From NCBI GenBank assembly GCA_030141605.1, contig JAQGDQ010000716.1, positions 1 through 64,000 of the forward strand: DNA of 64,000 nucleotides. The letters are read 5' to 3'. Shown one piece after another: positions 15,432-59,291 of this stretch; position 1 is the first letter of the stretch; each line of letters starts with the position of its first letter. Made by a program: the position numbers and the translations under genes. The notes under the pieces were generated by a model. That model did no database searches and was not told the DNA's origin. It worked only from the letters and a program-made list of their open reading frames with translations. Source of the stretch: Tubiluchus corallicola. Lineage: Eukaryota > Animalia > Priapulida.

Positions 15432-15916
15432 TTAGATGTGTATGTTTTTACCTCTTGTTTCGTTGTGAATGTTTTGGTAAAACCTTTTTTCAAATCCCTC
15501 ATGAAATGGCAGAGTTGAGTAAGATTCGTTGTGGCAGTACTTCCATTTTTTGTCGCTGTAGTATATATCTTCTACCATAGGACAACTTCGGAAGAAACTG
15601 TTGGTGTAATTTTTGAGCTGTGGTGATTCACTAACTAAATTCCATAACTTTATCATCTCAGGTGGATAAATTCGATGGGCTGCAAGGATTTTGTCACACA
15701 TTGTGGGACCTCGATATTTCAAATGGCTTTCAAACAAAATAGCTAATCTTTCGTTGTCGTCCAGGTATGTAATATTATCCATTTGATGAAGCCATATTGC
15801 TGCTGATATACTCCCAGTTAGATCGCACTTTAGATTTCTAGCGTGAAGTTTAATTAAAATTTCTTGCACAATATCTGCTGATACGAGGAAGAAAAACTCA
15901 TCCATCCGTCTTTTAC
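15432..15916 (-). CDS. GT31 beta-1,3-galactosyltransferase-like gene, coding exon 2 (C-terminal half)
   Basis: The acceptor ttcattcattatag|GT at 15917/15916 joins in phase with the donor at 16818/16817. The exon encodes RMDEFFFLVSADIV and the GT31-like C-terminal AHRIYPPEMIKLW motif. Confidence 0.7.
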
Positions 15917-16817
15917 CTATAATGAATGAAGATTTTCTCAATTAAAAGCAAATTTTAAATTAACTTAACTGGGAAAATGTGCTTATTTATTTTTACGAAT
16001 ACGTAATTTTTGCAAATTTTAAATTAACTTTAACTGGGAAAACGAATCCATCAGAACTTGTTGAAAAAGAACATTTACTAAGAATTGTCAATCACCTGTA
16101 CGAATTAAACTGCAAATACTACTGTCAGCTCTTCTGCAAGTCACGATATTTCGTCTTGTCACACTACATCATTGTACCCTACTTATAATAAACCGATTAT
16201 TATATTATAACAGATGAATCTGGACGCTTTGCATTTGCACCACCTACTATGTATAAACGGAATATAGAAAACGAAACACTTATGTCGAGAATTCCCCCCC
16301 CCCCAGCTAGGCTCTGGTTCAATTTACCTTTGAATACTCGTTGCCTGGATCCGCCAGCTGAAACAAGTCTGTACACGTATAGCTGGGTGCTCTGTGAACA
16401 CATGCCCACGAGTGCCATTTCTCAAACGCAAAGGCGATTTTAATCTGCTTACATGTTTTTATATTTCAGCCGTATTTTGACACTATCACTTTAAAAACAA
16501 ACTAATCACGGTACACAAAAGCATGAGCATTCTAGACTAACGAATTATTTTGTTTCTACGGCGTCATCTGCTATAATTATGAATGTTCAAAATCTGTAAA
16601 ACCTTTTTGCCCCTTCAGTTAGATTTATTCAATAATGGTTGGTAAGGGGTCTTTGGAAATGCAGCTGCTTGACTTATGGGTGTGGATCATTTCAATATCA
16701 GCACTTTTGTGGATATCCAATTATGTTAAGAAACAAAAACCTCTTTTTTCGGCTTATATGAGTGAGTCGATAATAGGCTACTAATCAGCTACAAGAATTA
16801 AAATTCACTTTACTAAC

Positions 16818-17411
16818 CTTCCTTTTTTTCACAGAGTCTGAAGCCCCAATTAACTTTTCTGAAGTTAAAATGAGCAAGTTCGTCTCCCACTTTTCTTATG
16901 CAAAGAAAAACATCGTCATCTAGTCGTAAGAAGTACTTGAAATTATATCTTTCCGAAGCCCAATTCATCATCCAAGTCATCCGTTTCCCAAAATTCATAC
17001 CATCAGGTGCCTCTGCTAGTATCAAGTCACTGTGTATTTTTTTCTCTTCAAGCAGAGGTTGCAGCAATGAATAGTTTTATATTTGTTCTCATACGTATCT
17101 TGGATTGAAACAAAAAACAAGCAAACCACGTTGTTTAGGCTTTTGCACCACTTCAACCATGTTGATCGGATGGCATTTCGTCTGTCCACTCGCATCGAAT
17201 AACTCATAATTCCAACAAATAGCAAAATTTCATCTGATGATTTGTGCGTTAAACTACTTGTAAGAGAGGAGCAATTTTTAAAGCAAATCTCGATCTCTAA
17301 ATGACTGTTTTCACATTTATACAGCACGAAAATAACTAACACAAGTAGTAACATTAAAAAGTGCAGCGTGGGTGAGCTGAGATACTTTTCTTGCTTGTTG
17401 TGAAGTACCAT
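16818..17411 (-). CDS. GT31 beta-1,3-galactosyltransferase-like gene, coding exon 1 (one 1-nt frameshift near 17075 as assembled; may be a pseudogene)
   Basis: N-terminal TM (FLMLLLVLVIFVLY), LLFVGIMS...RRNAIRSTW motif, KYFLRLDDDVF DxD motif, and donor G|gttagt. Confidence 0.8.
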
Positions 17412-25452: not shown

Positions 25453-26488
25453 TTAATTGATTTTCTGCATAACTCTTAAAATTTCTTCCCTCCTTCCACG
25501 ATGTGTATCTTTCAATGCGTCGAAAACGTTCCAGTTTGCTGTAAGATGCATCAGTCTTTCATTTCCATAATATCTACCTGCATTCCAAGCAATATAGTTT
25601 TCACCTTTGTGTGTATCCACTTGCAAAAAGAAAAATCCAAAATTTTTAACTAAACACCAAGCCTGAGCCATTGCTTCAAGATCACCACTTGGATTCAAAG
25701 CATCTCCATATCGTCCAAGTCCACTGTGTTCTATTGATGAATAACTGATTCCAAAATCGAACAATGGCTTCCCTTTTTCCAGATATTTTTGTGCCAGCTT
25801 TTGAGGTGAAATTGTGGTGATCCTGGGATGTGTTGACATTGGGTCGTTATAGTCTACTGTTGTTACATGTGATGCATTGAAGTTCAGCAAAAGAGCTTCG
25901 ATCCAGGGGTGTATTGTTCCAATAACAAAGCCATCTTTTCCCTCAATTACCTCTTTGTACAAGCTCAATGCTTTTACAACATTTCTGCTTGCAGGGAACC
26001 CATAAGGCGAAATATTTTTCCCTTCCAACACGCTATTTTGTAATTTCGAAATAAATGAAGTGTTAAAGAGATTCTTTTTAGATTCAGGTAAGACCTCTGC
26101 AAAATACCAATTTCGTATGGGCATCTTACCATACATTGTAAATTCACCCAGCAGTTCTGGGGGTGGTTCTCGTGGAGGAGGCCACTGATCTGACGGGGTT
26201 TCTAAGAGCAGCCTTTTCATAGTCGCTTGGCAGTCATAATGTTTATGTAGCACTGGATAGTCTAGACCCACTGTTCGCCGGAAGTGTTGTGTGTTTATAT
26301 CACAGGGGTCTCCACATGGGATATCATCTTTAGTTGAATAATTTAAAGAAAGTCTCTTGAAAGAATCTTCCGTAACCCTTTCCTCTTCATTAACAATAGT
26401 AATGTACATCATCTTGTATGTTCCCATAAATGTGCAAAATACAAAAATCGGGGCAAATAAAAGATTTCTTGTTCCTCGCCAGTAACAC
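25453..26488 (-). CDS. DUF268-family SAM-methyltransferase-like type II membrane protein, copy A (main coding exon)
   Basis: Intact ~345-codon frame with signature FDFGISYSSIEHSGLGRYGDALNPSGDLEAM, GFVIGTIHPWIE and NAGRYYG, plus an N-terminal hydrophobic segment. It starts after the acceptor ctttgtattacag, so the ATG is probably in an upstream exon that I did not locate. Confidence 0.88.
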
Positions 26489-26987: not shown

Positions 26988-28133
26988 GTGGAGAGTGTCG
27001 CGGGAAATGGCACGAATCTGTGTAACTTTATCGTACAGTGCTGAAGACTGCGGCTATTGTAGAAAAAGAGTTCTGTAGTAATTTTACTCGCTTACAACAT
27101 GTGCTAAAAGGAAAGTAATTTACGATTATTGGCTCCCATTCTACAGACTGCACACCATGACTGAGTTGAGGTAGCCGTGAGTGGCTCATGTTTAGCCTGC
27201 AGTTTCTCCATAAAATAGAATAGACGTGAAGCCAAATGGCAACGGTACCTGCACAGCTGAAATTCTCTGTTCCAGGCACAGGGAAACACAAGTAAAGCCT
27301 AGTAGTGTAATTTGTTATGGTGCAAACAAAGCAGTTGTCACTTTTTGTTCAAAAATCTATTATTAATTTGTCTACAAAAGCAAATGTGTTACATAAGACT
27401 TTCTGCTATTTTACAAGAAAGTCTATTATGCGGGAGCACATTAGTATAATAATATGTCAAACAATGTAATCGTTGTTCAGGGAAAGCAGGTTTTCATGAA
27501 CATGTATGAAATGCAGCAAAAACTCTGAAGTTGATCAGGTCCACTTGAAAGTTTTTTACTTCGTTTTTTCCACAATTGCATCTTCGGGCACCACACACAT
27601 CAACTGTTTCTTAAGACTCAACAGAACGTTACAGGCATTTTGAGAAAATCCAAAATATACTGGAAGTTGGGGAAAGACGGACTGTGGCTATTATCTGCTA
27701 ATAAGTTGTTAAATAACAATGATATGCTCACACATATTGGCACAACTACTTTTTCGTTTCTCGTATAACGTTTATTACAGTAGCACGTGTGTCAAGCATA
27801 ACATAGGAACTATTAGAAAACTCGGAAAAGTTTGTAATATGGATTTTTATCTTTTTTGCGCACATGGAATAATCTACCTCATTTTGATGTAATACACTAT
27901 AAGACTCTATCTTTAATTTATGGCTACGTCTAAAACACAATTTTATAATATTCACTCATATGGCAGCTTTAAGGTTTTAGAAATAGGTTGACAATAATAT
28001 GATATTGGAACCATATCATATGCCGTGGATTGGCATTCTAATGTATGTAAAATGCAACATTATAATAGGCACGACAGCTGTTAGACAGGGTAATAATGTA
28101 ACGTCTAAAACCCCGTGTATGGTCTTAACTTTT
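26988..28133 (-). repeat. Probable source copy of the inverted duplication at 845-1990
   Basis: Near-identical reverse complement of 845-1990. A diverged homologue lies at about 46400-47890, upstream of DUF268 copy B. Confidence 0.9.
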
Positions 28134-28778: not shown

Positions 28779-30594
28779 CTAGCCAAACCCCACAAAAAGA
28801 ATTTTGTGCACAAATCAACACACAACCCACACCACACCACTCCACCTCATCACACCACACTGCACCACACCATACCACTCCACCTCATCGCACCACACTG
28901 CACCACACAATACCACCGCACCGCACCACACCATACCACCTACACCATAATACTCCACCACATCACACCGCACAGCACCACACCATAACACCACACTGCA
29001 CCACACCACCCACCCACCTACACACCACACCACCCACACCATACCACTCCACCACATCACACCACACTGCACCATACCACTGCAGCACACCGCACCACCC
29101 ACACACCACACAACACCACACCACCCACACCATACAACTCCACCACATCACACCACACTGCACCACACCATACCACTCCACCACATCACACCACACTGCA
29201 CCACACCATACCACTGCACCACCCACGCACTACTCCACACCACCCACACCATAATACTCCACCACATCACACCGCACAGCACCACACCATAACACCACAC
29301 TGCACCACACCACTCGCCCACCTACACGCCACACCACCCACAGCATACCACTCCACCACATCACATCACACCGCACCACACCATACCACTGCAGCACACC
29401 ACACCACCCACACACCACACCACATCACCCACACCATACGACTCCACCACATCACACCACACTGCACCACACCATACCACTGCACTGCACCACCCACACA
29501 CCACACCACACCACCCACACCATAATACTCCACCACATCACACCGCACTGCACCACAACACCCACACACCATGCCACCCACTCCATACCACACTACCCAC
29601 ACCACACCCCACACACCCTATCACCCCACCACACCATCCATAGCACAACACACAAAGCACACCACCACCACACCATATCAAATCCACCACCTCACGTGGT
29701 GATCATGATGTTAATGATGATGATGATGATGGTGGCAACGATGACGACACCTATAGCACAAGCACCAACTGCACAGCATTACAACAAAACCATTCCAAAC
29801 ATTTTTCACAAAGTTGAAACTATGTGCTATAATATAATAAATAGCAAAGGCCCCGCAAAAGATTTTGCGTGAAAAACCACGTGTAATCAATAATACGCGA
29901 ACGTCCTACACAGTCCTCATTTATAACACAACGCCCGTAACATCCTGCCTACCGTTTGTTTAACTAACGCAAACCCGTAGCAGGCAGCTTTTTGCTGAAT
30001 TAAAGTTATAAGATTACAGCAGAGTACAATGGATGACGTCACGACAATGCCTTTGCGTCTGCAGTTTTCTAAGTGAAAATTGCCGAAAATAGAACTCCTA
30101 ATTAACTCGTTGATACTCCTCTCGGTGGACCTGCCCTAACATATAGCTCACATCATCGTGTAGCCCTGTCCTTCCTCTTTGTAAAGAGCCATATATCTCC
30201 TTCCGAGAGTCCCACCAGGCGCCGCTATTACGTTTTTTCCACAGGCTGTTTGGTCAAAATTTCGAAAAAATCGCGAGTTGTGTCCGGGAAAACGCCCGTT
30301 ACGGGGCGCCGTGGCCCTCTCGCGAATTCTAAATACGCCTATGACACCCACGCTGAACGGGCTATCTATCCATGGCCAGCACCACCCATGACCAATTTCC
30401 GTTCCCTAGATCTCAGACGTATAACTTTTGCAAAAACGGCCGAAAAAGGGCCATTTTTGGAGGTTTTTCGCCCCCATTCCTCCCGGTGGGCCCGATTCGA
30501 AAAATAAACCCCCAATGAGACGACACTAGATCGAGACCTTTCGTTTGATATATAGATCGCAAATGGTGCCCTCCTCCGGGCTGTAGCCTCGAAT

Positions 30595-30628
<34 letters not shown>

Positions 30629-30652
30629 AAGAATATTAACATAAGAGTATAG

Positions 30653-30653
<1 letters not shown>
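28779..30653 (-). mobile_element. Full-length extended Helitron (~1.9 kb)
   Basis: Same architecture as 3806-5486: A|TC at 30653, internal CTAT at 29841-29844, outer hairpin+CTAG at 28779-28782. Confidence 0.8.
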
Positions 30654-30705: not shown

Positions 30706-31379
30706 CATAATAATAACGATCATGATAATGATAATAAATGTAATAATAATAACAATATAAACCGAGAACTTTACCTGTCTAATCTTCCAAGTATCCTCAT
30801 CCCCACTTCTGTCTAGCACAAAATCACGTACAATCAGTTGTTTACCCAAGAGCAGTCATGTTCGATCTGTAATGACAGTAACAGTTTGAAATCTTGTCAG
30901 TCGCTGTGTAACTTTTCTGCAATTCTGAGTTTAAAAATCAGAAGCAACTTCCGTATCATGTGATGTTCCTGAGAGTCTTTCCCTTATAGGAATTTTAATA
31001 TAATAGGCCTGATTAGACGAGTCTGTGCATGCGAAAACACGAACCAAATATCTTATAGAAAACTATTTTCTTTCAGGTTTCGCCATGTTTACCGTTGCGT
31101 TGCAGCCTCTTCACAGCATCGTAGTTAAACGAAAATCAGATTTCGTACAATGAGTGAAAGTACCAAGACTTCTGCCCTGCAAATTGTTATATAAAGATTA
31201 AGGTTTGCGCAATATTGTTTATTGTTGTTGCTGTTGTTGTTGTTGTAAATGATATTTTTGTTGTTGATGATTTTTTGCTGTTGTTATTGTCATTGCCACT
31301 GTTTCTGCAGAATGGACATTTAGAAGTGGTTGACGTCTCGGAAAAATTAATCTGTCTAATTCGGTAAGAAACAGCAATT

Positions 31380-43079: not shown

Positions 43080-44063
43080 TTACAAACCTGCTTGATAAGA
43101 AAAGAGCTCCAAATCAGGTTGGTATAGATTATGCAAACCTCCACGAATCGCTGGAGCCAATGTTTTATAATAAAAGGAAAAGATTTTCTTACGTTTTGCA
43201 GTTTCGTATTTCTTTGGAAATAAATCTACTTCATTAAATTTTAACAACTTCTTCAATAGTTGCATATCTTCCGCCATAGTCTCGTATTTACCAATGAAAT
43301 CATAATTAATCCTGCAAGGATCACACAAGTTCACATACGTCTGCCAGTGCTGATTCGCACGTTTGCCCTTCGTTTTTAAAACATATTCAAGAAACACATC
43401 AAAAGTTATGTTCTGGTTAGTCATACTTCCTTGATGCTGTGTTATAATGGCTTCGCGAACCGATTTAAAGTTTGGATCTCCAATAACAAACTTGTCATAG
43501 AATGCAGAGTAAAGTCTGTCCAGTGGATGTCGAACAAATACAATCTTGTAATATGTGTCAATAATGCGTTTACGATCTGTGATGCTGTATTTCAACAAGG
43601 ATTTGTTGTTGTAGGATTTGTTTACATGAACTGCTAACTGTTCTATGTGCAATATCTCCTGCACGTTTGGATGATCTGCCAGAAATAGAATTCTTTTCCA
43701 ATTCGTGCTCGCAATTTTAGGTATCCAGCAAAACAGCATTTTATACTTTCCATTGACTAGAAGGTATTTCATTTGCTCTCGTGATGAAAGTTCAGAAAAG
43801 TAAGAATTCCCATATTGCCGACATATTTTAACTTTTCTGCGGATCCGTTGTTCAACAGTCAAGTGTAAAACACGTTCTGTTTCTTTAAGCGGTTTTTCTT
43901 CTTCTGAACTGGTAGCAAAAAACCAAGATTTTTCAAGGCATCTGTTCCGTGTGCACTCTTGGTGTAACGCAAGACTTATAAGAGCGCCAGTAGCAATCAG
44001 AATAAATTTTCTAATTGATAGTTTGTACATCATGTCTGTAAAAATGGCTGTAATAGATAACAT
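43080..44063 (-). CDS. Carbohydrate sulfotransferase, Sulfotransfer_2 family (CHST8-14/HNK-1ST-like), type II membrane protein
   Basis: 5'-PSB CWIPKIASTNWKR, 3'-PB VFVRHPLDRLYSAFYDKF, HW...LCDPCRINYDFIGKYETM and terminal LYQPDLELFSY, plus an N-terminal TM. The true start may be the ATG at 44033, after acceptor-like tttttacag. Confidence 0.93.
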   Translation of the reverse strand: MLSITAIFTDMMYKLSIRKFILIATGALISLALHQECTRNRCLEKSWFFATSSEEEKPLKETERVLHLTVEQRIRRKVKICRQYGNSYFSELSSREQMKYLLVNGKYKMLFCWIPKIASTNWKRILFLADHPNVQEILHIEQLAVHVNKSYNNKSLLKYSITDRKRIIDTYYKIVFVRHPLDRLYSAFYDKFVIGDPNFKSVREAIITQHQGSMTNQNITFDVFLEYVLKTKGKRANQHWQTYVNLCDPCRINYDFIGKYETMAEDMQLLKKLLKFNEVDLFPKKYETAKRKKIFSFYYKTLAPAIRGGLHNLYQPDLELFSYQAGL

Positions 44064-44853: not shown

Positions 44854-44875
44854 GCAATAGTAATAATAATAATAA
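44385..44875. repeat. (AGT/AGC)n plus (AAT)n microsatellite
   Basis: Directly visible. Confidence 0.95.
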
Positions 44876-45441
44876 CTAGCAATACCCCGCCAAAAAATAT
44901 TTGCATATAAATACACGTATAATCAATAATACGCGAACATTCTAACTAGTCCTCATTTATAACGCAAAGCCCGTAACATCCTGCCTACTTTTTGCTGAAT
45001 TAAAGCTATAAGCTTATAGACAGAGTACAATGCAATCGTCAACGTCACAACAATGCCTTTGGGTCAGCAGTTTTCTAAGCGAAAATTGCCGAAAATAGAA
45101 CATGTAATTAACTCGCAAGTACTCCTCTCGGTGGACCTGCCCTAAAATATAGCCCACATCGTCGTGTAGCCCCGTTTTTCCTCTTTCTAAAGAGCTATAT
45201 ATCTCCTTCCGAGAGTCCCACCAGGCGCCGCTAGAACGTTTTTTCCGCAGGCTGTTTGGAAGATTTCAAAAAAATCGCGAGTTGGGTCCGGGAAAACGCC
45301 CGTTGCGGGACCCCGTGGCCCTCTCGCGAATTCTAAATAGGCCTACTACACCCACCGCTGAACGGGCTATCTATCCATACCCAGCACCACCCTCGACCCG
45401 TTCCCGTTCTCTAAATCTCAGCCGTATAACTTTTGCAAAAA
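44876..45441 (-). mobile_element. Non-autonomous Helitron, 5'-truncated, with intact CTAG 3' end
   Basis: ...GCGGGGTATTGCTAG|T on the minus strand, plus the family core. Confidence 0.75.
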
Positions 45442-46186
45442 ACTGCAGCCTTTCATATAGGAAATGAATAAGAGAATGGACGAATGAAATATTAGATGAT
45501 TTTTGTGTGAAAAACATCCCGCTATATCGAGCTTATGGTAGAGACGCATAAAAACGATAAAAACCCGAAAAAAAAAATTGATGTTTGCGTAAGATTTTAG
45601 ACTCCTGATTCCGCATAGTGAAACTCTTTTGACTAAAGCTTGTTCTAGTGGTGATAATAAAAAACTCGAAAGCTATCAGCAAGCTCCGCAAAACGGAGAC
45701 TTACACATTCATCTTTAAACTCAAGGTTGCTGAAAACTTACGAGGCGACTGACTGGAATTCAAAACTGTTGTTAGTAATATACTTATGAAATATGACTTG
45801 ATTTGGTTACACAACTGATCGTACAAGATAATGAAGTAGACTGAAACCAAAATGAGGATTCTTAGACGATTGGACAGGTAATGACATCACTTTAATTTAT
45901 TATCAATTAATGTAATCATACCTCAAACGAAAAGTCACGAACATAGTGTCTCCTTGGTGATCGAATAATATTTTTCGTTTGATTTTGATATCGGCGCCAT
46001 CGGCAATAACCAGTGGGGGGGGGGCAGAATTTGTCAACTTGTTTTGAAATTTAAATATAGAAATTGAAACCTATCAAGTTTTTTCACAAATCACAAATTA
46101 ATTGAAAATGATATGGAAACGCTATAATTAGTAGTATAATGTCTTCAATTGAATTCAAAAATGATTTCAGTTCATTAGAAGCGAAC

Positions 46187-46365
46187 CACAGCACTAATTA
46201 TACGTACATGTTCACACAGCACTAATTATACGTACATGTACACACAGCACTAATTATACGTACATGTACACACAGCACTAATTATACGTAAATGTGCACA
46301 CAGCACTAATTATGCGTACATGTACACACAGCACTAATTATACGTACATGGTCACACAGAAATTA
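46187..46365. repeat. 28 bp tandem repeat, about 6 copies
   Basis: Unit CACAGCACTAATTATACGTACATGTACA. Confidence 0.9.
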
Positions 46366-47929
46366 ATAGCAAAATGACAGTAAAAACATGAGACTTTACA
46401 CCGGCATTCAGGCTACATTTTATATTAAACCTATTTAACAACCGTAATGCACACTATAATGATGAATGTCTACACACATTAGAATGCAGGTCTACTATGT
46501 AAGATATGGTTTCAATATGGAATTTCTTTCGATCTACATCTAACCTTTGAAAACTTCAGCATAAAGAATTTACTTATTTTCAACCTACTAAGGTCTTTGC
46601 ACGTTGCCCCATGCGAGTGATAGGTATATATCAAATATTACATTAAAATGAGGGAGTTTATTTTTACACACACGTCTGTGCGATGCTGGAAATATGCTGT
46701 ATAGAGTAAAACCCGTATATTGGATGTTTATTTTTCTGTACTTTCAAATCGTTCCAAAGTTATGTTTGAGCCACATACAGGAACAATGAAAACTCAATAT
46801 TATACGAGATGAAGAAAAAGTAATTTTTTAGCACATTTCAGGTTTTCTAATTAGATTTTGTTTGCAAATATCGCAGTTAATTATCTATATCAACGTTACT
46901 ACAAAAATGTCAAACTTTAAACTTCCTATTATGTAAAGTTATTATTGCAAATCAAATGGATGCGACTGGAGGTGTCAACCGGGGTATATTTTATTACTTT
47001 GTCTATATCTCTCGAATTTTAGAAGGATATGTTCTTACTTTTTATCATATAGCGCTTACTAATATAACACAGAATTTCAGTATTGAGTTGTTGCTTTAGA
47101 TAAACAATTAACATAAGCTCAAAGATCTTTTTGCATACTTGTAATAACAATTCTACAACTAAATAACAGAGATGATTATTACTCCACTTTCATTTCTAAA
47201 TACCACGCGAAAGGCAGGGTAAAATATTCAGTGTGTTGAAGTAAAACTCGACAAGTTCTAAGGTAAAAATTCATGTTTCAAATTTACCGCTGTGCTCACG
47301 CATGAGCTATAGAACGTGTGTAGTTCGTCACAAACTAAAATATCTGAACCGAGAGATACAACACCTGTTTTTGTGCAACTCTTTCCAAAATGCAGGCGCT
47401 GGTGTCCGTCTAACTAGTGAATGGCAAAATGCATGTAACAACGAAGAACTAGTGGCGCGAATGCGAAATTGTGTTTGTGAGGTAATAATTCTTTCACGTA
47501 AGTCACAATATGTTTTCTACAGTTTAAGATTGACCTACAGTTTTGACCTATAGTTTAAGATTAGGTTCGGTTTTGCTTTAAGAAACAGTTAATGTGCTTG
47601 GCGCCCGGCTATGCAGTTATGTGTAGAATGAAAGAAAAAAGGTTGTCAGGTAGCTTCACTTAACTTCAGGATTTTATACAGTTCCCGAAAAGGTTCCCGA
47701 AAACTTGCTCACATTAAACAGCGATTACATTATGTTTGGGATATTATTATATTATTCTGCTTCCCACATGACAGGCTTTCATAGAGATTTATACACATAA
47801 CACGTTTGGTTACTTTAGACAAATTAAAAATAAAGTCTGAAGAATAACAGACAATTGGGTTATGTGCACCATAACAAATTACAGTACCACTCGTGTAAAA
47901 TTTCTTGGTGCAGAGAAACTCATCTGTCC

Positions 47930-48320
47930 AGATTCGACACCTCCATACGTTAATTCCAAGAATATTGGTGAAATCAAAACTAAACTACAAAACGGTGTGA
48001 ACAATATATGTCAATGGATGTCAGCTAGTAAAAGGATCCTTAATGTAGTAAAAGCTAAAAAATGATAGTGTGTAGTGCCCAAAAGCGAGCCCGTGCAACC
48101 AATTCACTAGATCTTGATATAAAAGTAGTGGCACCACGTTAGAGGAAGTTCGCGCAGAAAAGCTACAATTTCTCTTAATGATCATCTTATCCGGCAGCAC
48201 CAAATGACTAAACTTAGAAGTTTGGTAGTTGAAAAGGATGGGATATTCAAAAAAGCACGTCCCTACATCAATGCTACATTGGCAAAACTACTCTACAATG
48301 CTACGGCACTGCCACAGAAG
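47930..48320 (+). mobile_element. LINE RT fragment, degenerate
   Basis: KLQNGVNNICQWM...LNVVKAKK and GIFKKARPYINATLAKLLYNATALP. Confidence 0.6.
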
Positions 48321-49319
48321 TTATTGATTGCAAAATGCCCGCGAAGCTGAAACACAAATTCCAAAAAAGAAACTTTCTTTGCAAAACACAAGCAAGCGTC
48401 TGGTGGGCAGTTGTGTTTAACTAAATTTAGACATGAATATAGCAAAGCAGTCTGAGGAGCTACTGAGGGAAATTTTGGTTTAATTTATTTCAACAACCAG
48501 CTTGTACCTATGATGCATTTGTGCCTTGTTGTGTTTAAAATATATACGCGTGCAAATAATGTGTTTTAATGTAATATATAATATCTTATCACTCATGTAT
48601 TGGTAAATTTTAATGTATAATTTGTACTGTGATTTATATTTCAACGCTTTTAAAACTATAAAAACTATAAAATTTGTGAAACTGCATACGATTTTAGCCT
48701 TATATTGTATTTATAATTTATTACTGTGCGTAAGTTTTGTTTTGTTTAAGTTTGGTTGGTATTCAGTTAAGCAAGTAGCTGTTGCTTTGATGTGATATTG
48801 GTGATGTGAAACTTGTCTAGCCTTTTGTTGCTTTTGTAAGGGCCCCAGTTGTTTGTCTCTTTTTGTTGTTTGTGTGTGGTGTCCATGTCATTCTAGTTTA
48901 ATACCAAAACCCATAAAACACCTATATAAAACACGCGTTTACTCAATCAGCTTAAACAATCTGCATGCTAACTTAGCGGAATAGATAAAAGTCAACCGAA
49001 AGCAACAAATAATTAATTAATATGCGTGATAACAAGGTTGCTCCCACTAATTAGCCAAGTGGTGAGTTGTTAGGTCTTATATAGTCTCCCAGTGTGTTCG
49101 TACCGATTTGCTTGGTCAAACAGGGTCTGAATATTTTTATAGTCAAATAGGAGTTTACATAACTACACATGAATGCACTGAGGGCAAGTGTATCATTGCA
49201 GAAGTAATGAAAGATTTACATGTTCTTCAAAACTTGTAGAAAGTCGGGTTATTCACACTGTGATAAAACTGAACACTTTTCACTTTGTTCAGAAAGTCAT
49301 CTTATTCTTTGTATTACAG

Positions 49320-50361
49320 GTGTTACTGGAGAGGAACAAGAAATCTTTTGTTTGCCCCAATCTTTGTGTTTTGCACATTTATGGGAACATACAAGATGAT
49401 GTACATTGCTACTATTAATGAAGAGGAAACTGTTACGGAAGATTCTTTCAAGAGACTTTCTTTAAATTATTCAAATAAAGATGATATTCCACCTTGTGGA
49501 GACCCCTGTGATATAAACACAGAACACTTCCATCAGACAGTGGGTCTAGACTATCCAGTGCTACATAAACATTATGACTGCCAAGCGACTATGAAAAGGC
49601 TGCTCTTAGAAACTCCGTCAGATGAGTGGCCTCCTCCACGAGAACCTCCCCCAGAACTGGTGGGTGAATTTGCAATGTATGGTAAGATGCCCATACGAAA
49701 GTGGTATTTTGCAGAGGTCTTCCCTGAATCTAAAAAGAATCTCTTTAACACTTCATTTATTTCGAAATTGCAAAATAGAGTGTTGGAAGGGAAAAATATT
49801 TCGCCATACGGTCTTTTTGCAACCGGCACTGTTGTAAAAGCATTGAGCTTGTACAGAGAGGTAATTGAAGGGAAAGTTGGTTTTGTTATTGGAACAATAC
49901 ACCCTTGGATTGAAGCTCTTTTGCTGAACTTCAATGCATCACATGTAACAACAGTAGACTATAATGATCCAATGTCAACACATCCCAGGATTACCACAAT
50001 TTCACCTCAAAAGCTGGCACAAAAATATCTGGAAAAAGGGAAGCCATTGTTCGATTTTGGGATTAGTTATTCATCAATAGAACACAGTGGACTTGGACGA
50101 TATGGAGATGCTTTGAATCCAAGTGGTGATCTTGAAGCAATGGCTCAAGCTTGGTGTTTAGTTAAAAATTTTGGATTTTTCTTTTTACAAGTAGATACAC
50201 ACAAAGGTGAAAACTATATTGCTTGGAATGCGGGTAGATATTATGGAAACGAAAGACTGATGCATCTTACAGCAAACTGGAACGTTTTTGATGTAGTGAA
50301 AAATACGCGCCGTGGCCGGAGGGAAGAAATTTTAAGAGTTATGCAGAAAATCAATAATTAA
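49320..50361 (+). CDS. DUF268-family SAM-methyltransferase-like type II membrane protein, copy B (main coding exon)
   Basis: About 92% identical to copy A by hand alignment, with the same SSIEHSGLGRYGD signature and the same acceptor ctttgtattacag (49318-49319). Confidence 0.88.
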
Positions 50362-53300
50362 ATGTGGATCTGCACCACTGTAGAAAGTTATACAGACGTC
50401 TTGTTGCCTTCTTACTTTTTAGTATGTCATCGTATCTTGTGCTGAAGGTTGCTGTGTTACAATTACAGAACATCCCAAGTCTGCAAAATTACCTATTAGC
50501 TCCAGCAATCCCGAAAGCCCATTTGCGTTTAGGAGTAAAACACAATGGGCGCTTGCTGACATTATTTTATTATGGCATTACTATAGCATTGTGCAATATT
50601 CAGTACAGCTGGATTTGAATGCATGAGTTTTTGCACATCACTAGAGGGAAATGGAACTACAGAGTCTGGCTAATTATATCATGTATTTCCTCTACAAGTT
50701 AAACACTCAGTGTGCTACCAATAAAAGGTTAATCCTCTAGAATTAGATGAATGAAACTGGCCAGAACACGTATTTTCACACATTTTCATTAGCTTTTTCA
50801 AAATAAAAGTACTATATTACTAATAGTTTAACATATGTGCTGACAGATACAGTTAAAATTGTTTATTATTGTTTATTAATAAGTCTAATCCAGGTTGTGG
50901 CCTTGGTCTGTGATGCTCAATCACGTGTAGCTGCTGGGCTTCCCATATATGGCAGAGAATATTGCTAGTGAGTTTTACTAGCCAATCAGGTAAGCCCAGT
51001 AGATGCATGTGACTTGTGTAGCTTTGCCACGACCAGCCTGAGCATTTTTTCGTCTGATTATTGCTGTTGAATTGTCACCATGTGTGCTTTCTTTTCATGT
51101 AAATAGTGTAAATAGCAAATAAAATCTTTCACAGTTTAATGCAGTTTTCTATTCTCTTCTTGCTTTAACAACCAGAGTGAGCCAGTCTCATAATTCAGTT
51201 TTAAACTATCTCTTTCAAGAAGTCTACAAATTACTAAAATAAAGTTTATAATAGCGGTCCAGTCACTCAACAGAGACAACTCCAAAGTTTTCTGTTTGCA
51301 TTGAAGGAAGTCACCCATCTTTTCATTACACAGCTTCAGTGTCGCTCAAGTTCATTAGCAAGACGTAAAAATATATTTTTTGTTTTCGCCTGCACAACCC
51401 AGTGCAATAGACAAAACCAGTTGACCTTATTTGAATACAGACTTAATAATAACATGATTGTAATTGCAACAAAATTATTTTATAGTTGCCTTCCCCGGGA
51501 ACAACTTATCGAAATTCTTTTCGCAGTACGCTGTCTAATTAATGAGTAATTAACTTTTTGTATCTCACATGAAACGCCATGGAGCTGCACTTACGCCTCT
51601 CCTGGTGAAAAATTGAACTAGCGCAGCTCTGGCTGACGAGGTAACAGAGTGTACACGCAGCTTATTGTGATATTGTCGTACAAGATTTGGTTAAATATAA
51701 AGTTGTTATTAGTACATTGCAGCATTTGACCTTGGTTTGGATAGGTAGTCGGCTTCATCAAAAGCGACATATTTTACTACCGTCGAAAGTTATGGGTCCA
51801 TTACAGTATATTCTAAATGAGGTAAACAATCATTGCGCAAAATTAGACTGGTCTACAGCATATTGTAAAATTCATGTGGCATTAATTGAAAGCATCGTCA
51901 GTAATACAAGCTGCAAAAGTGTGGGCCTTGGTAACAAAAGTTCTTTTCTTGCAAAGCAAGTCCGTATAGTAACTTCATTCTGGTAGAAGAATTAACGAAT
52001 TTGTAAACACAGAAAAACTCATTGAAGCATAATTATAATGCTAGTTTGACAATTTTTAGTGACAGCTTCATTATGTCAGCCTTGACAAAAATATATTAAC
52101 CCCATGGACACATAGACTATAACATGTTAGCTGTAGAATTATTGACCAAACATATATGAACATTTTTAACATTGTCGTGTTTTAGTCTGTTAAATCAGTA
52201 AGACTTTTAATATCAACCAGAACTTTAACTGTTGTTCGTTAGCTTTTGTTTTTACATGATAACAACACGTTGTGTTTATTTTTACACAGCAGTGATATTA
52301 AAATATTAGGATTAGATAAAATTCTTGTGGTCAGTTGGACTGAAATAAAAACTAATGATAATAATAAGTTTAATATAATTAAAATTCACTTTTACAAAAT
52401 AAAAAACTAACGATACAATGTGGTTCGATGACGAAATAATTATTTATTGTCTTGTTTCAAGAAAGGTTATTCTATCACTCATTCTATTACAAAGTTGAAA
52501 AAACTGCATGTAGTACAAAATACTCTAGTACAAAGCTCTTTGTGCTAAACAAATTACCAAATACACTGAAGTCGTTGTTTATGGTGTAAGGATTAACAAT
52601 TTACAGTTGTCAATTTGCGATTTGCAAAGCTTTTTCTTTAGTTAATATTCAAAATTCAGAATAAAATTTTAGCGCAAATAACTGCATTACATAATGTAAT
52701 TGTGATATTTTTACTGAAATGGATACAAATCTCGAGATGATGTAACGATCTGACGTCTGGGGGTAGTTTGTTTGATCGAAGGTAGTCGCTGGGTAACAAT
52801 TTGACTGGCCTGACCGAGCTAAAGGGGCGACCAATCATCTACCCGTTAGCTCCAGACAGTTGCGAGCTTATAGGCAGTCTACGGGGGGCCTGTCTATTGA
52901 GCAGAGTGGTTCGGGTGTGGGATGTGCAGTTTACTTTGCTTGGAATAATCTGTTGGACTCACTATGATAATGCAAGCGACGAAGATAAGGCAACTAATGC
53001 ACAAACAATCAATTGCATAAATATTGTAGAAATAATTATTAAGCATACAAACAAAAAATGTATGTAAAAGAAAACACTATCATTATTCAAACACTAATTT
53101 AAGTTTGAATGTGCTAAATATTACGGTATCTACTTACAGTAGACTTACACTATCAAGTCGATAAACAAACAATAAAATTGGCATATAATGCACAACCGCT
53201 AAAGCTACCTAAAAGGGTACCTATTTGTCTAACTACATGCCACCCCAAATGATGTAGTCCTCGCTAGCGCTACGATGATCAACCGGCATTATCTCACTTA

Positions 53301-54959
53301 GAAAATACACCATGGAGGTTGCGTAGTACTACTTAGTTTAACGTAGGGCGCCTCTATGATGAGGTTGCAGCTCAGCGTCTATTAGTATCACTACCAATTT
53401 CTTGAATAGCAAGGAGGTTAAGTCCAGCTTCCACGCAACTGCTAACATCAGATAAGCAAAAACTAAATCGTGCAACTTACAGTCTCTCGGTTGTTACCGT
53501 ACTGGGGGTGCCTCGTCACCTCAAACATGGATCCGCCTCTCAACGGTTTGTCGGTACGCCAATAGCACTTCCCAACAATACGATCACAGCAATGAGACAA
53601 AGTCTTAATTGTCTCCAAACTTTGTGGAAATCGCTACCACCAAAAACATCTGTCCACTCAGTTGTCCAATGGTTTCAGACCTCATGAACAAAGTCACCAT
53701 ACGATATAACTGACTACGTGGACGATACTACTTGCACGTCATATCAGTCTACGTGCCGTACCTGGAGTAAAGTTGCTGACCTCTTTTCGATACCTGCGAG
53801 AGTAGTCGCAGGCATAGGTATATGCTGGCTTCCTACAGCTATCATTACAAGCGATTAAACTGGCCCTCCCGCAGTACTTACTAACCTTGACTAATGGCTA
53901 TTATCGTTCATAGGCTATAGAAACGATCTTTTTAATGCTAATGTTATTTTACTTCCACATATGAACAAAAGGTAGAATACATAATGATATGCACAGCATA
54001 GAAGGGTCAAAAGTGAGTAGAGTTTGTGTTTTCTTTCCTAACTCTGTAACTGGGGTGACCAACCAACTGACAGACCAACTGAACAAACAGCACACTCACA
54101 TGACGCAAGCCACTGCACGAGTCCATTTATGTGGGAAGATGAAATGGACGTTACAGATGACTAAACTGCATCGATAAACTATGCACTTGGCTTAAAATGA
54201 AACAAAAAAACACTACAGAAACTGCATCTGACTAAATCTCTCAGAAGTGTAAGCACAATATTTTTAGCACTAAAGTTCATCATGTTCTAAACTCACGTTT
54301 CAAAGCAAACAGCCGAGAAATTATCACACAGGTTGTAGGAGTGAATCCAGGTTTTAGGTTACACTTTCACTGCTCCAATAATTTTCTGTTGCTCATCGAA
54401 AACTAAAAGTTGTTATATTTTGGCTTCGTATTTCGACACTTTTAGTCTGACTACTGCATCCCGTCTAATTGTTTAATCCTAGCGCAACACATTCCACGAC
54501 CGTTTTTCAATAAGAACAATCAAAACCGAAACCTAGCAAATCACGCATTCAATTCACAATAAACCAATCTTTACCGTGATACGGTCACTAGGTATAAACA
54601 GTGTAAAAGTACTGTTTGCTGAACGCTGTTTGTTGGTGCAAACAAATGCTGTAACAAGTGTTGCGTACAATCCGTCTCACCTTGGGCATTTTGCCAAGTT
54701 TCATCTGTAGTACGTCAATTTCGCCACCAGAGGCGCAGGCGCAGATGCATGCTCAATGGCGGCCTAGTCAAATGTTCGTTTTGTATACAATTTTATCCGA
54801 GGTTTTGCCAAGGTCTCTTAAACATGAAAATTTCGTGAAGAATGAGGTACGTATTTCTATTCACAATATAATAGCGAGTTATTTAAGCTCAACTTAATTT
54901 TGGTGATATTCGCCCTTTAAAAGATTACAAATAAGGTACAGATCTGTTGTAATAATTGT

Positions 54960-55255
54960 AATGTACAGGGTCTTGCACAAGAATCGCAACGCAAAACCAA
55001 ACTTTGTAATTAGTGTAGTGCATAGGAACCTGCAAGAAAATCGAAACGCAAACACAAATTTTGTAATTAATGTAATACATACGGACTTGCACAAGAACCG
55101 CAATGCAAACACAAACTTTGTAATTAATGTAATGTATTCGGACCTGCACAAGAATTGCAACACAAAACACAAAGTTTGTAATGATTTTAATGCTTAGGGA
55201 CCTGCACAAGATTCGCAACGAAAAACCCAAACTTTGTAATTAATGTAATACATAG
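54960..55255. repeat. 57 bp diverged tandem repeat, 5 copies
   Basis: TGCACAAGAA..GCAAC...AAACTTTGTAATTA recurs at 54974, 55031, 55088, 55145 and 55203. Confidence 0.85.
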
Positions 55256-55307: not shown

Positions 55308-56237
55308 GGTCAAGTCAACAAAGGAATTCATGGATGAGGTTGTCAAGTAGCCAAGGAGTGAATTCATCCCTGAGGCTGTCAAGTAGTCAAGGAGTGAATT
55401 CATGGCTAAGGTGGTCAGGTAGTCAAGTAGTGAATTCATGGCTGAGGTGGTCAAGTAGTCAAGTAGTGAATTTATGGTTGAGGTGGTCAAACAGTCAAGG
55501 ATTGATTTCATGGCTAAGGTGGTCAGGTAGTCAAGTAGTGAATTCATGGCTGAGGTGGTCAAGTTGTCAAGTAGTGAATTCATGGCTGAGGTGGTCAAGT
55601 ATTGAAGGAGTGAATTCATGGCTAAGGTGGTCAGGTAGCCAAGTAGTGAATTCATGGCTGAGGTGGCCAAGTATTGAAGGAGTGAATTCATGGCTAAGGT
55701 GGTCAGGTAGACAAGTAGTGAATTCATGGCTGAGGTGGTCAAGTAATGAAGGAGTGAATTCATGGTTGAGGTGGTCGAGTAGTCAAGGATTGAATTCATG
55801 GCTGAGGTGGTCAAGTTGTCAAGTAGTGAATTCATGGCTGAGGTGGTCAAGTAGTCAAGGAGTGAATTCATGGCTGAGGTGGTCAGGTAGTCAAGTAGTG
55901 AATTCATGGCTGAGGTTGTCAAGTAGTCAAGTAGTGAATTTATGGTTGAGGTGGTCAAGTAGACAAGGATTGAATTCATGGCTAAGGTGGTCATGTAGTC
56001 AAGGAGTGAATTCATGGTTGAGGTGGTCAAGTATTGAAGGAGTGAATTCATGGTTGAGGTGGTCGAGTAGTCAAGGATTGAATTCATGGTTGAGGTGGTC
56101 AAGTAGTGAAGGAGTGAATTCATGGTTGAGGTGGTCAAGTAGTCAAGGAGTGAATTAATGGCTGAGCTGGTCACGTAGTCAAGGAGTGAATTCATGGCTG
56201 TGGTGGCCAAGTAGTCAAGTAATAAATTCATGGCTGA
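55308..56237. repeat. 36 bp tandem minisatellite, about 25 copies
   Basis: Unit GTAGTCAAGGAGTGAATTCATGGCTGAGGTGGTCAA. Confidence 0.95.
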
Positions 56238-58262
56238 GAAGACGATGCAGGTGTTGTTAAAGCAGCCAACAGCATCAACGTTGTTGAGCAGACAGTCGAG
56301 GAGGAGAAATAACGAGAAGCAATGAATATTAGATAATACAGAAAGTGAATTGGGAGTAGATGGTTTGAGAAAATATTTATGATTTTGATCAGCTTAGCTG
56401 TGCCACGTTATGCAATTTTTGCACTGTCATCGAGGGTTCATATTGAGATTTAGGTATACAGCTTAACATTTGCTTTGTAATAACTGATAACAGTTAATTT
56501 TAATAGCTAGAAATTAGGTTTAAATTTCCGTTTATTACATTATGTCAGGTATTTCCACTTGTTCTTTTCCTACCAAAGATCACGCTGAATTATTACTAAT
56601 CAACGCTCATGCTAATGCAAAGAAGAATTGCTAGAGCTATTTAGTACTTACTCTTAGGTCCTTAGAATTTACTTGAAAGATATTTGTTCAATTAACAGAA
56701 AAAGAAAAAGCTAATATGTTTTTCTTTTCCCATTATTTGGTATGTCTGGTGGTAATGCCATTAAGGCAGATTATGGGAAAGGTAGATCTCTGCGGCAAGA
56801 GATTTTACTAAAAAGAACAGAGAACTAAACGCTGAAATGTACTTAATATCGTAAATATTATATTATGCACTTTTTTATATTATTTATAAACAAAAAAGTA
56901 CAAAAAATAAAATAGCACATAAAGTGCATAAAACAGCATATGTACAACAGTATGGCCTCGCTAACTTGCCGGGGCAAAGATTCATTGATATCAATAATAG
57001 CAATTCACAATTATTTTTTTATCAATTCGAGTATCTTACAATATCTTTTAGCACCTGTTATGAGAATTGATATGCTTAAGTTCTCCCATATACACAATAT
57101 TTATAGTGTTAATCTGCTCCAATTATTCATCCCAATATGCAAACGATAGCGTATTGTCTTCTCTAGACGAGGGTGAATCAAAGTCAAAGTCTCTTGGAGA
57201 AACTATTGTGCAATTCAAAAACATCACCTGATGTCTCTCGGCTTTCACACTAAATCCGAGAGAAACGTAGTACTTTCACTAAGCGTTCTAAACGTAAGTA
57301 TATCAACATGTGACGTGTGAACGGAGCTGTAGTTAAACCTGTGTTCGTACACACAAGTCGACACGGCGCCCATTGACGATAGCGACAAGCAGGTACCTTT
57401 CTTTCTGATTTAGTGGTAATGAAGTCCTTTACAATGTACAATCGTGAAATATCAAAGTCTGGTGACCTCTCCTTGAGGAACATGGGCACTGGGTACTCAC
57501 AAAATCCAGATCGATGTTCTGCTCTCGTGATAAGACCGGCAAAACCACGGAAACCGAAATGTGGACATCTTCCAGCATCACATTAGATCATCAGCTTTCC
57601 AAAAGTCAACTAGTCTAGTGCTACACCAAAGAATATACCGATAAATCTGTGCCAAGAACGTACAAAAATTTTTGCATCTGAATGCTTTATAATACAGTCG
57701 AAATTTTACCCCTCCCAATGGGACTAACCTTTTCTAAACTAACAAAAAGGACCTAGTTGATTATAACGAAATAGAAACAAGTTTCATTTTGCAATCGTAA
57801 TGTGCAAATCTGTGTCAAAATACGAAACTAAAACTTAGAGTTTATTTTCAAATTAAGTTACGCCTCAATAATTCAACATGGGCCAATAAATCACATTTTT
57901 ACTGTTTTGCACACCCAGATGATAATGAATTGTTTAACCAAAACGCATTGAACCTATACATTTTTGAATATAATATAATCTATCAATTTTTTTAACTATT
58001 TTCTGCATTTATTTCACAAACTGCAACAGCTCAAGCAAAGAATAACTGTATCTTTACAATTTGGTTCAATGGTTATTTTTTATTTTGAAGAATTACGTAT
58101 AATAAAACTTAAAAACTGACTTGCAAATTCGAACTCTTCATATGGTTCAGTAGAGTTTGTGACAATCTGTAAGCTACTTAGGGCATTCAGTAACATGTAA
58201 GTGGAAAAAACGAAAAACAACCGAGCAACCGATTTTCCCACTATGACTCGGTTAGAGCAAAT

Positions 58263-59291
58263 CTATAAGTCATGACGGACGAAAACAACATCCAAGCCAT
58301 CTTCAACTCTGTCGCTAGGTGGCACCACTCCTGCTTCCTTATAGAGACTAGTTCCAAACATTATTGTTCTGATTGCGTGGAGCTTTTGCCTTGTCTCTTT
58401 GATATGCGGTCCTTTACTGTCATAAATTTTGTATTCTACGGTCAACACGTCAATCGTCAATTTGTTAAAAGGGATTGACTGCAAGATGTCCACTTCAGCA
58501 CCTTCGACATCAAGAGAGAAATAGTCAATGTGGGTACGATTCAACGCCAACATGACAGAGTACAATGGAAAACATTGGACAGTTTGATATCTGTTGTTAT
58601 GACAACCGACTAATCGTTCTTCATTTGATCGGTGCATTTTGTCTGTCAATCCTCCCAGAACGCCGCCAATTCTAAAATCTGCCTTATAAGTTTTATCACT
58701 GGGACTTAGACAAGCATTCAATAGATAAGAGTTACGATTCTGTTGCAGAAGATCACCAAAAAACATTGGATTTGCTTCCACCAGAAGTCCTGTCCAATTA
58801 CGAGTAATCTCAAAGAAAAAAGTATTGGACAAACTCTGTCCATCTGTTGCTCCACACTCTACAAAAAATCCATTCCTCCTTCCTTTAAGGATGTTATCAA
58901 CAAATTCAGATTGTCCATGCTGAGAAAAATCAACATTCTCCAACTTCTGAAACGTCTGCTCTGCAGATGGTGCAATCAACCAGTGATCTTTTATGTGAGC
59001 AATGAGATTTTCGTCATCAGAAGCAGCGCCACCATACTGCAGAGCAAGAATTTCTCCTGCTGCAGGTAGGGATTTGTGAACACTGAAGGCAGAAGAAGAG
59101 ACGACATTTTTAGTAGAGAAAGGTGCACTTGCAATTTTCCATTTTGCATTTCTATTTTTTGTGATTATTTTTTCCAGAACAACTTTTTCTTTCAAAAAAA
59201 GAAAAACAAATAACAGTGTCACAAATATCACAATTGGCATTTGATGAATGTATTGTTTCCTCATGTGGATGATGTCTCTGCAGACAGACAT
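58263..59291 (-). CDS. FkbM-family (Methyltransf_21) methyltransferase, Star-like type II membrane protein
   Basis: FSQHGQ, GFFVECGATDGQSLSNTFFFE..RNWTGLLVEANP, VQCFPLYSVMLALN..HIDYFSLDVEGAE..IL, plus TM IVIFVTLLFVFLFL. The 342-aa ORF is intact. Confidence 0.92.
   Translation of the reverse strand: MSVCRDIIHMRKQYIHQMPIVIFVTLLFVFLFLKEKVVLEKIITKNRNAKWKIASAPFSTKNVVSSSAFSVHKSLPAAGEILALQYGGAASDDENLIAHIKDHWLIAPSAEQTFQKLENVDFSQHGQSEFVDNILKGRRNGFFVECGATDGQSLSNTFFFEITRNWTGLLVEANPMFFGDLLQQNRNSYLLNACLSPSDKTYKADFRIGGVLGGLTDKMHRSNEERLVGCHNNRYQTVQCFPLYSVMLALNRTHIDYFSLDVEGAEVDILQSIPFNKLTIDVLTVEYKIYDSKGPHIKETRQKLHAIRTIMFGTSLYKEAGVVPPSDRVEDGLDVVFVRHDL

What the first reader, a model, noticed from the sequence alone, without database searches (positions are those of the whole stretch)
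15432..59291. Candidate animal glycan-tailoring gene cluster: GT31 glycosyltransferase + 2x DUF268 methyltransferase-like + carbohydrate sulfotransferase + FkbM/Star methyltransferase
Seen: all five recognisable host genes in 64 kb are 320-360 aa proteins with a short N-terminus, one hydrophobic anchor and a C-terminal catalytic domain. They come from four different families, with no other recognisable host gene between them. Established: GT31 enzymes add beta-1,3-linked sugars, Sulfotransfer_2 enzymes sulfate glycans using PAPS, and FkbM and DUF268 are SAM-methyltransferase-type folds. Many invertebrates make O-methylated and sulfated glycans, and the methyltransferases responsible are poorly characterised. 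Inference: this is a pathway cluster, like a biosynthetic gene cluster, that builds a sulfated, O-methylated glycan (mucus, cuticle, egg coat or a recognition epitope). Clusters of non-homologous pathway genes are rarely described in animals.
Basis: partly seen in the sequence, partly recalled or inferred. Interest (0 to 1): 0.85.

Follow-up and report, generated by a model that had tools for sequence, protein, structure and literature searches.

The report
Animal cluster of glycan-tailoring genes
Five neighbouring genes of an unidentified invertebrate, from four unrelated families, are predicted to encode Golgi enzymes that add a sugar, a sulfate and methyl groups, and they likely decorate the same surface glycans; such clusters are already described in C. 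elegans, so this is a new example that offers candidates for the still-unidentified animal glycan methyltransferases.

Summary
The cluster is real. Pfam confirms GT31, two DUF268, Sulfotransfer_2 and FkbM genes, and 300 further ORFs gave only a retrotransposon fragment. Corrections: (1) GT31 is frameshifted as assembled; contigs from two other samples lack the two extra bases at that site. (2) The DUF268 genes are a two-exon inverted duplicate pair (92.6% identical, dN/dS 0.19), so there are four independent genes, not five. (3) The DUF268 anchors are only borderline hydrophobic. Both methyltransferase candidates model as class I SAM-dependent folds. DUF268 relatives often sit beside glycosyltransferases in environmental, bacterial and viral contigs, frequently fucosyltransferases; one viral locus has an FkbM-GT31-GT11 fusion next to DUF268. 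The idea is not new: C. elegans has published 'glycoclusters' of glycosyltransferases, methyltransferases and DUF268 genes, and two of them hold CHST-like sulfotransferases. Their function is untested too. Synteny, copy number and co-expression could not be tested (no genome, no RNA). Best reading: a C. elegans-type glycocluster, likely outside nematodes, that likely decorates shared surface glycans (0.55); rival: a turnover hotspot without functional coupling (0.3). The scan earlier noted the DUF268-fucosyltransferase link in bacteria; my look-ups returned no animal cluster like this.

The parts
15432..15916 (-). GT31 glycosyltransferase, exon 2 (acceptor AG at 15918-15917; stop ends at 15432)
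   Evidence: relatives carry Pfam Galactosyl_T; one named relative is a coral hexosyltransferase
16818..17411 (-). GT31 exon 1: start codon, signal anchor (residues 15-33), stem, N-half of the catalytic domain with the DDD motif; frameshifted near 17077-17079 in this assembly
   Evidence: contigs of runs X1, X2 and X3 lack two bases there
25453..26488 (-). DUF268 copy 1, exon 2 (anchor and class I methyltransferase domain)
   Evidence: Pfam E 8.5e-28; acceptor site
30775..30800 (-). DUF268 copy 1, predicted first coding exon (26 bases, phase-2 donor)
   Evidence: conserved between the two copies, in frame with exon 2; no RNA proof
43080..44063 (-). CHST/HNK-1ST-type carbohydrate sulfotransferase (Sulfotransfer_2), one coding exon, up to 327 aa
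   Evidence: Pfam E 2.3e-44; best hits insect CHST11-like at 34%; motifs at residues 114 and 178 (their role as PAPS-binding loops is recalled)
45852..45877 (+). DUF268 copy 2, predicted first coding exon; head to head with the sulfotransferase, start codons 1.8 kb apart
49320..50361 (+). DUF268 copy 2, exon 2
   Evidence: Pfam E 2.2e-27; model pLDDT 94, class I methyltransferase fold Z 13.5
45560..50602 (.). Whole-gene inverted duplication, partner at about 31080-25207; non-coding blocks 62-67% alike, coding exon and 3' flank 88%
58263..59291 (-). FkbM/Star-type methyltransferase (Methyltransf_21), one coding exon, 342 aa, signal anchor residues 15-33
   Evidence: Pfam E 6.2e-14; model pLDDT 96; top fold match FkbM 2py6 Z 12.5

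Best explanation
This is a 44-kb island of four unrelated enzyme families, one gene duplicated, predicted to work in the Golgi lumen, where they likely decorate the same class of surface or secreted glycans, as is proposed for the C. elegans glycoclusters. Shown: the genes, their families, N-terminal hydrophobic segments, the inverted DUF268 duplication under purifying selection, and no other recognised host gene between them. From family knowledge (recalled): GT31 enzymes move a sugar from a UDP-sugar, usually in beta-1,3 linkage; Sulfotransfer_2 enzymes move sulfate from PAPS to a sugar hydroxyl. Predicted: DUF268 and FkbM are class I SAM-dependent methyltransferases. Inferred: they O-methylate sugar hydroxyls, DUF268 most likely on fucose and FkbM possibly on or near the GT31 product, so that the island would act as a co-regulated finishing kit giving a sulfated, O-methylated coat (cuticle, mucus or egg envelope). 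It would not be a self-contained pathway: donors, transporters and the fucosyltransferase must be encoded elsewhere.
For: Four families in a row, no other recognised host gene in 300 ORFs; expected 0.003-0.125 such runs per genome at 2-5% glycan genes (assumed inputs). Both DUF268 copies keep all 10 columns invariant in 122 sequences; dN 0.036, dS 0.192. All five have N-glycosylation sequons in the main exon. Folds: DUF268 Z 13.5, rmsd 3.6, 184 aligned to a class I methyltransferase; FkbM Z 12.5, rmsd 2.9, 163 aligned to FkbM 2py6. Neighbours of DUF268 relatives include a glycosyltransferase in 11 of 22 environmental contigs of 4.5 kb or more, and a glycosyltransferase or nucleotide-sugar/polysaccharide enzyme in 6 of 8 bacterial and 7 of 17 viral loci scanned. 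A fucosyltransferase-family gene is the neighbour in 11 of these 47 loci and FkbM in 7. Viral locus L104 has one ORF with FkbM, GT31 and GT11 domains directly before a DUF268 gene. Precedent with some co-expression in C. elegans (PMC7614267 section 17). The sulfotransferase and DUF268 copy 2 are head to head, 1.8 kb apart.
Against: No sulfotransferase turned up next to DUF268 in any scanned neighbour, nor by tblastn of the window's enzyme against 128 loci. Among 8 contigs I judge animal-like (low coding density, transposon ORFs; four group with annelid proteins), only L007 has a glycosyltransferase neighbour, though these contigs (5-19 kb) are mostly too short to reach genes spaced as in the window. 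The neighbour counts have no matched control gene, I hand-picked 94 of 351 ORFs, and eight of the environmental loci form one clade. The families are expanded in invertebrates (11 Lingula and 4 Owenia FkbM proteins among the top 120; 6 Owenia DUF268 records in one cluster), and GT31 has indel-bearing copies and at least one further paralog in this species, as expected for a turnover hotspot. GT31 is broken in this assembly. No 8-mer is shared by three or more non-duplicate upstream regions (weak test). Fold matches are generic and name no glycan methyltransferase.
Confidence: 0.55

Rival explanations
1. Turnover hotspot without functional coupling: intron-poor, fast-evolving Golgi-enzyme families gather in repeat-rich regions by duplication and relocation; each enzyme works on its own glycan and the grouping is not selected.
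For: Only 5.2 kb of 64 kb is coding and the rest is rich in tandem and interspersed repeats; families are multi-copy in invertebrates; GT31 shows broken and paralogous copies; mixed orientations; the C. elegans authors raise the same doubt.
Against: Four different families with one predicted compartment and complementary chemistry, and no other fast-evolving family recognised among them; the DUF268-glycosyltransferase-FkbM association recurs in compact genomes and in a fusion ORF.
Confidence: 0.3
2. Chance adjacency: the families are so numerous in this genome that four in a row is expected.
Against: C. elegans, which is rich in such genes, has about 700 candidates (PMC7614267), roughly 3.5% of a recalled 20,000 genes, which gives 0.03 expected runs.
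Confidence: 0.07
3. The methyltransferase-like genes do not act on glycans (small molecule, lipid or protein substrates, or a non-catalytic role like that recalled for Drosophila Star), so only GT31 and the sulfotransferase are glycan enzymes.
For: Top fold matches are small-molecule and protein methyltransferases with tied Z scores; several FkbM hits are named 'protein Star'; no paper in my searches shows activity for either family in animals.
Against: Recurrent glycan-gene neighbours in environmental, bacterial and viral loci; invariant acidic and histidine residues kept.
Confidence: 0.05
4. The block was acquired as one piece by horizontal transfer from a protist, giant virus or bacterium with a glycan island.
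For: Similar families cluster in viral and environmental contigs.
Against: Named nearest relatives of each gene are animal; the window's DUF268 copies fall in the eukaryote-type clade (SH-aLRT 99), loosely beside annelid proteins (84, quick tree), away from most bacterial and viral sequences; three of five genes have spliceosomal introns; GC and GC3 match the window.
Confidence: 0.03

Closest known systems
C. elegans glycogene clusters ('glycoclusters': C13A2.1-12, K06H6.1-6, T15D6.1-12; PMC7614267, section 17 read whole)
   Same: Neighbouring single-anchor Golgi-type genes of different families: glycosyltransferases, potential methyltransferases, DUF268; K06H6.5 and T15D6.1 are listed as CHST-like sulfotransferases (PMC8869759 Table 1). 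Function as a pathway is untested in both.
   Different: Here four families and five genes are spread over 44 kb of repeat-rich DNA; no nucleotide-sugar transporter, DUF273, DUF1647 or GT92 was recognised; the host is likely not a nematode. I could not see their Fig. S15, so whether GT31 or FkbM genes lie in those clusters is unchecked.
Animal biosynthetic gene clusters and 'bundles' (sponge oro bundle, coral terpene and mollusc bursatellin clusters; PMC12833800, abstract and passages)
   Same: Non-homologous, animal-type enzyme genes gathered in one region.
   Different: Those make small molecules, are conserved across producing species and were validated biochemically; none of that is shown here, and the predicted product is a glycan.
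Microbial and giant-virus glycan islands with DUF268 (e.g. viral locus L104, bacterial loci L083, L088, L092)
   Same: DUF268 beside FkbM, GT31 or fucosyltransferases.
   Different: Gene-dense and often with nucleotide-sugar synthesis genes; no sulfotransferase among the neighbours I scanned.

Membership tests
C. elegans-type glycocluster | Adjacent genes for 300-600 aa proteins with one N-terminal anchor | tested here: met
   327-358 aa; N-terminal hydropathy peak in all five, borderline in DUF268
C. elegans-type glycocluster | Different families: glycosyltransferase plus methyltransferase-like and DUF268 genes | tested here: met
C. elegans-type glycocluster | Correlated expression of some members | not testable with these tools
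   no RNA holder listed
Biosynthetic gene cluster (pathway sense) | Three or more non-homologous enzyme genes co-located | tested here: met
   four families in 44 kb
Biosynthetic gene cluster (pathway sense) | Linkage conserved in related species | not testable with these tools
   no genome of this or a related animal is held; look-up of relatives empty
Biosynthetic gene cluster (pathway sense) | Enzymes act in sequence on one product | not testable with these tools
   needs biochemistry
GT31 (PF01762) | Galactosyl_T domain with DxD motif | tested here: met
   E 1.2e-5 above cut-off; DDD motif in frame
GT31 (PF01762) | Intact reading frame | tested here: inconclusive
   broken in the window; site in frame in contigs of other samples, other indels also seen
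Sulfotransfer_2 / CHST8-14 type | Full PF03567 domain | tested here: met
   profile positions 3-252 of 252, E 2.3e-44
Class I SAM-dependent methyltransferase (DUF268 copies) | Rossmann-like methyltransferase fold | tested here: met
   pLDDT 94; the top 50 structural matches are methyltransferase-fold entries, best Z 13.5
FkbM / Methyltransf_21 | PF05050 domain and FkbM-like fold | tested here: met
   (top Z 12.5, tied with other methyltransferases)
Glycan O-methyltransferase | Methyl transfer from SAM to a sugar hydroxyl | not testable with these tools
   guilt by association only

The most novel reading that the evidence does not exclude
Operon-like glycan-finishing clusters are a shared or repeatedly evolved feature of animals beyond nematodes. 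This one is a selected, co-regulated unit in which DUF268 is the long-sought Golgi fucose O-methyltransferase and the FkbM/Star-type protein methylates the GT31 product, and segregating GT31 null alleles would give individuals different surface-glycan types, like blood groups.
Probability: 0.2. Interest if true: 0.8.

Novelty: new member of a known kind. Interest (0 to 1): 0.48.

Why it matters
O-methylated sugars are targets of lectin-based defence and mark nematode surfaces, yet the passages I read state that the methyltransferases remain unidentified (PMC7614267, PMC6422873). This locus names two intact, well-modelled candidates with a likely partner glycosyltransferase and sulfotransferase, which makes the question directly testable. 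It would also extend C. elegans-type glycoclusters to another invertebrate lineage, with genes spaced 2-12 kb apart, which argues against worm operons as the only cause of such clustering.

Tried and rejected
No whole genome is held, so copy number and genome-wide co-location were not measured. No RNA holder listed; the one possible RNA run gave no contig on GT31; neither is evidence on expression. Run X5 gave one diverged contig under depth 5, not used. Sequence searches of solved structures found nothing informative for DUF268 or FkbM. No characterised glycan methyltransferase stood out in the fold lists. A tblastn with the N-terminus of the best DUF268 relative did not find the first exon; comparing the two copies did. 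Accession numbers of named annelid and brachiopod hits showed tandem copies within families but gave no cross-family adjacency. Twenty of 43 neighbour ORFs on short environmental contigs gave one glycosyltransferase (GT29, L056) and two retroelement fragments. Sub-threshold Pfam hits (DUF2098, YdgV, Herpes_UL31, DUF6321) and MgtE_N on a translated 36-bp tandem repeat were rejected as noise. No tRNA genes. Literature searches for a cluster like this outside C. elegans returned nothing relevant (open-access library only). Look-ups of earlier scan notes by place, relatives and sequence were empty. The careful DUF268 tree did not finish; the quick tree was used and L042 was left out for a stop in the matched stretch. 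No binding prediction was run: the claim needs none.
Full report
Setting. The window is animal DNA: about 36% GC, rich in microsatellites, minisatellites and interspersed repeats, with 5.2 kb of coding sequence in 64 kb. No whole genome is held. The species is unidentified. An earlier unreviewed note on this genome suggests a priapulid; I did not test that. Named relatives of the genes come from annelids, a brachiopod, molluscs, arthropods, a nematomorph and a coral; no named nematode was among the listed hits, so a nematode host is unlikely (inference).

Observation. Pfam confirms two DUF268 domains, one Sulfotransfer_2 and one Methyltransf_21, and Galactosyl_T in the middle piece of the GT31 gene. 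To test 'no other host gene', I masked repeats and the five genes (38,314 bases left), listed 421 stop-to-stop ORFs of 38 aa or more and scanned the 300 longest; only an RVT_1 fragment at 8192-8749 passed a curated cut-off. Order and strand: GT31(-), DUF268-1(-), sulfotransferase(-), DUF268-2(+), FkbM(-); gaps are 8.0, 12.3, 1.8 (head to head) and 7.9 kb (tail to tail).

Corrections to the gene models. GT31 has two exons (17411-16818 and 15916-15432) and changes frame near 17078 in this assembly. Contigs of public DNA runs that hold this region were laid on it. At 17077 all depth in X1 (82.1 of 82.1), X2 (505.3 of 505.3) and X3 (11.5 of 11.5) shows another base, and a contig spanning the site in each run lacks two bases at 17078 (depth 45.4 of 82.1 in X1, all of it in X2 and X3; two listed X1 contigs end at 17080). 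Read by hand this opens the frame at that site, giving 358 aa. So the window carries either a private null allele or an assembly error. The same runs show other indels in this exon (one extra base at 17111 in 39.7 of 130.3 and 292.1 of 1211.1 depth; a 17-base loss in X3) and loose ends that read as a further GT31 paralog. X1 and X2 are one sample and could be related to the assembly's source; a fully intact copy over the whole gene was not shown, since no contig spans it.

The DUF268 ORFs begin at a splice acceptor. Aligning the two upstream regions showed a whole-gene inverted duplication with non-coding blocks 62-67% alike and a conserved 26-base exon with a start codon and a phase-2 donor in both copies. 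Spliced, the proteins are 353 and 355 aa, 327 of 353 residues identical, dN 0.036, dS 0.192, ratio 0.19 (0.07 in the C-terminal third). Both copies are therefore likely functional. dS is lower than the intron divergence and patchy (0.065 in codons 70-150), which may reflect gene conversion (inference). For the cluster argument they count as one gene.

What the enzymes are. A model of DUF268 from 122 sequences has pLDDT 94 and matches class I SAM-dependent methyltransferases (Foldseek best E 1e-6; best Z 13.5, rmsd 3.6, 184 aligned, many ties). Ten columns are invariant, including a Glu-His pair and a Gly-Leu-x-Arg-x-x-Asp stretch after the fourth strand. The FkbM model (pLDDT 96) matches bacterial FkbM 2py6 first (Z 12.5, rmsd 2.9, 163 aligned, tied with others). 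A shared fold does not give the substrate. The sulfotransferase covers the full PF03567 profile and is 34% identical to insect CHST11-like proteins. All five have an N-terminal hydrophobic segment and N-glycosylation sequons; the DUF268 segment is borderline, and 9 of 11 C. elegans DUF268 proteins have a predicted signal peptide (PMC3534327 Table 2 passage).

Guilt by association for DUF268. I fetched 80 environmental, 15 bacterial-genome and 33 viral loci. In the 22 environmental loci of 4.5 kb or more I scanned 94 hand-picked ORFs of 351 (none for L031 and L039, which had no separate long ORF): 11 of 22 have a glycosyltransferase neighbour (GT2, 10, 11, 25, 61, 92, O-FucT, STELLO, WbsX), and two more have a TPT-family transporter or an NXPE-type gene. 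The five nearest ORFs of 8 of 15 bacterial and 17 of 33 viral loci gave a glycosyltransferase or nucleotide-sugar/polysaccharide enzyme in 6 of 8 and 7 of 17. A fucosyltransferase-family gene is the neighbour in 11 of these 47 loci (one hit below Pfam's cut-off), FkbM in 7. L104 has a 1,467-aa ORF with FkbM, GT31, a second methyltransferase and GT11 domains just before a DUF268 gene split over two ORFs: three of the window's four families side by side. Limits: no control gene, related loci are not independent, no sulfotransferase neighbour was found, and of 8 animal-like contigs only L007 has a glycosyltransferase (GT11) next to DUF268. Earlier scan notes had already pointed to the DUF268-fucosyltransferase link in bacteria; my counts are a partial check of it.

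Chance. With assumed fractions, four glycan-enzyme genes in a row are expected 0.003-0.125 times per 20,000-gene genome at 2-5%, and twice at 10%. Random order is a weak null, because young multi-copy families gather in repeat-rich regions, and these families are expanded in other invertebrates.

What is known. PMC7614267 (passages, section 17 whole; the supplement held is only a gene list, Fig. S15 not seen) reports C. elegans clusters C13A2, K06H6 and T15D6 with glycosyltransferases of different families, potential methyltransferases, nucleotide-sugar transporters and DUF268, DUF273 and DUF1647 genes, some with similar expression, and says it is unknown whether they work in sequence. PMC8869759 (passages with Table 1) lists K06H6.5, T15D6.1 and T09E11.3 as CHST-like. 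PMC6422873 (passages) and PMC7614267 say the glycan methyltransferases are not known. PMC11836678 (passages) links GT92 genes to surface properties; nulls of C13A2.6, T15D6.10 and T15D6.12 were among those without the biofilm phenotype. PMC12833800 (abstract and passages) shows that animal enzyme clusters and bundles exist and are validated by cross-species conservation and biochemistry. Only 8 papers in the library mention DUF268 (search listing). My searches found no such cluster described outside C. elegans, within an open-access library.

Verdict. The grouping is real and probably not chance. It works like, and on the testable features belongs to, the C. elegans glycoclusters: a new member of a known but functionally unproven kind, probably in another phylum. 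Whether it is one selected pathway (0.55 for a functionally linked finishing kit) or a turnover hotspot (0.3) cannot be settled without genome, RNA and biochemistry. Its main value is to put DUF268 and FkbM/Star-type proteins forward as testable animal glycan O-methyltransferases. Interest 0.48.

Noticed in passing
window 845-1990 and 26988-28133: A 1,146-base stretch of the DUF268-1 intron is copied, inverted and 99.9% identical, 25 kb away; it has sharp ends without obvious terminal repeats and is homologous to the DUF268-2 intron, so it is a very recent copy of host intron DNA or an assembly artefact.
   Followed up: partly
window 16940-17240: Several indel-bearing GT31 haplotypes or copies segregate in public runs, some with compensating indels, plus a more distant GT31 paralog; possible null-allele polymorphism.
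   Followed up: partly
L104:1304-6582: Viral contig (310 kb) with an FkbM-GT31-methyltransferase-GT11 fusion ORF followed by a eukaryote-type DUF268 gene split over two overlapping ORFs; in the quick tree it groups with L078 and near Mytilus DUF268.
   Followed up: partly
window 55324-56238: 36-bp tandem array (25 copies) open in frames on both strands; its MgtE_N hit is likely a repeat artefact. Similar arrays at 38246-38901 (36 bp), 6675-7553 (40 bp) and 54947-55255 (57 bp).
   Followed up: no
window 2000-5500, 29600-30700, 38900-39170, 44860-45450, 1-664: An interspersed repeat family of about 600-1,000 bases (81-92% alike), often next to CACAC-type microsatellites; one copy lies between the sulfotransferase and DUF268-2 start sites; no tRNA-like head found.
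   Followed up: no
window 8192-8749: Decayed LINE-type reverse transcriptase fragment (Pfam RVT_1, E 1.9e-11).
   Followed up: no
L007:1-5009: Animal-like environmental contig with a GT11 fucosyltransferase about 3 kb from a DUF268 gene, a possible second animal glycocluster.
   Followed up: partly
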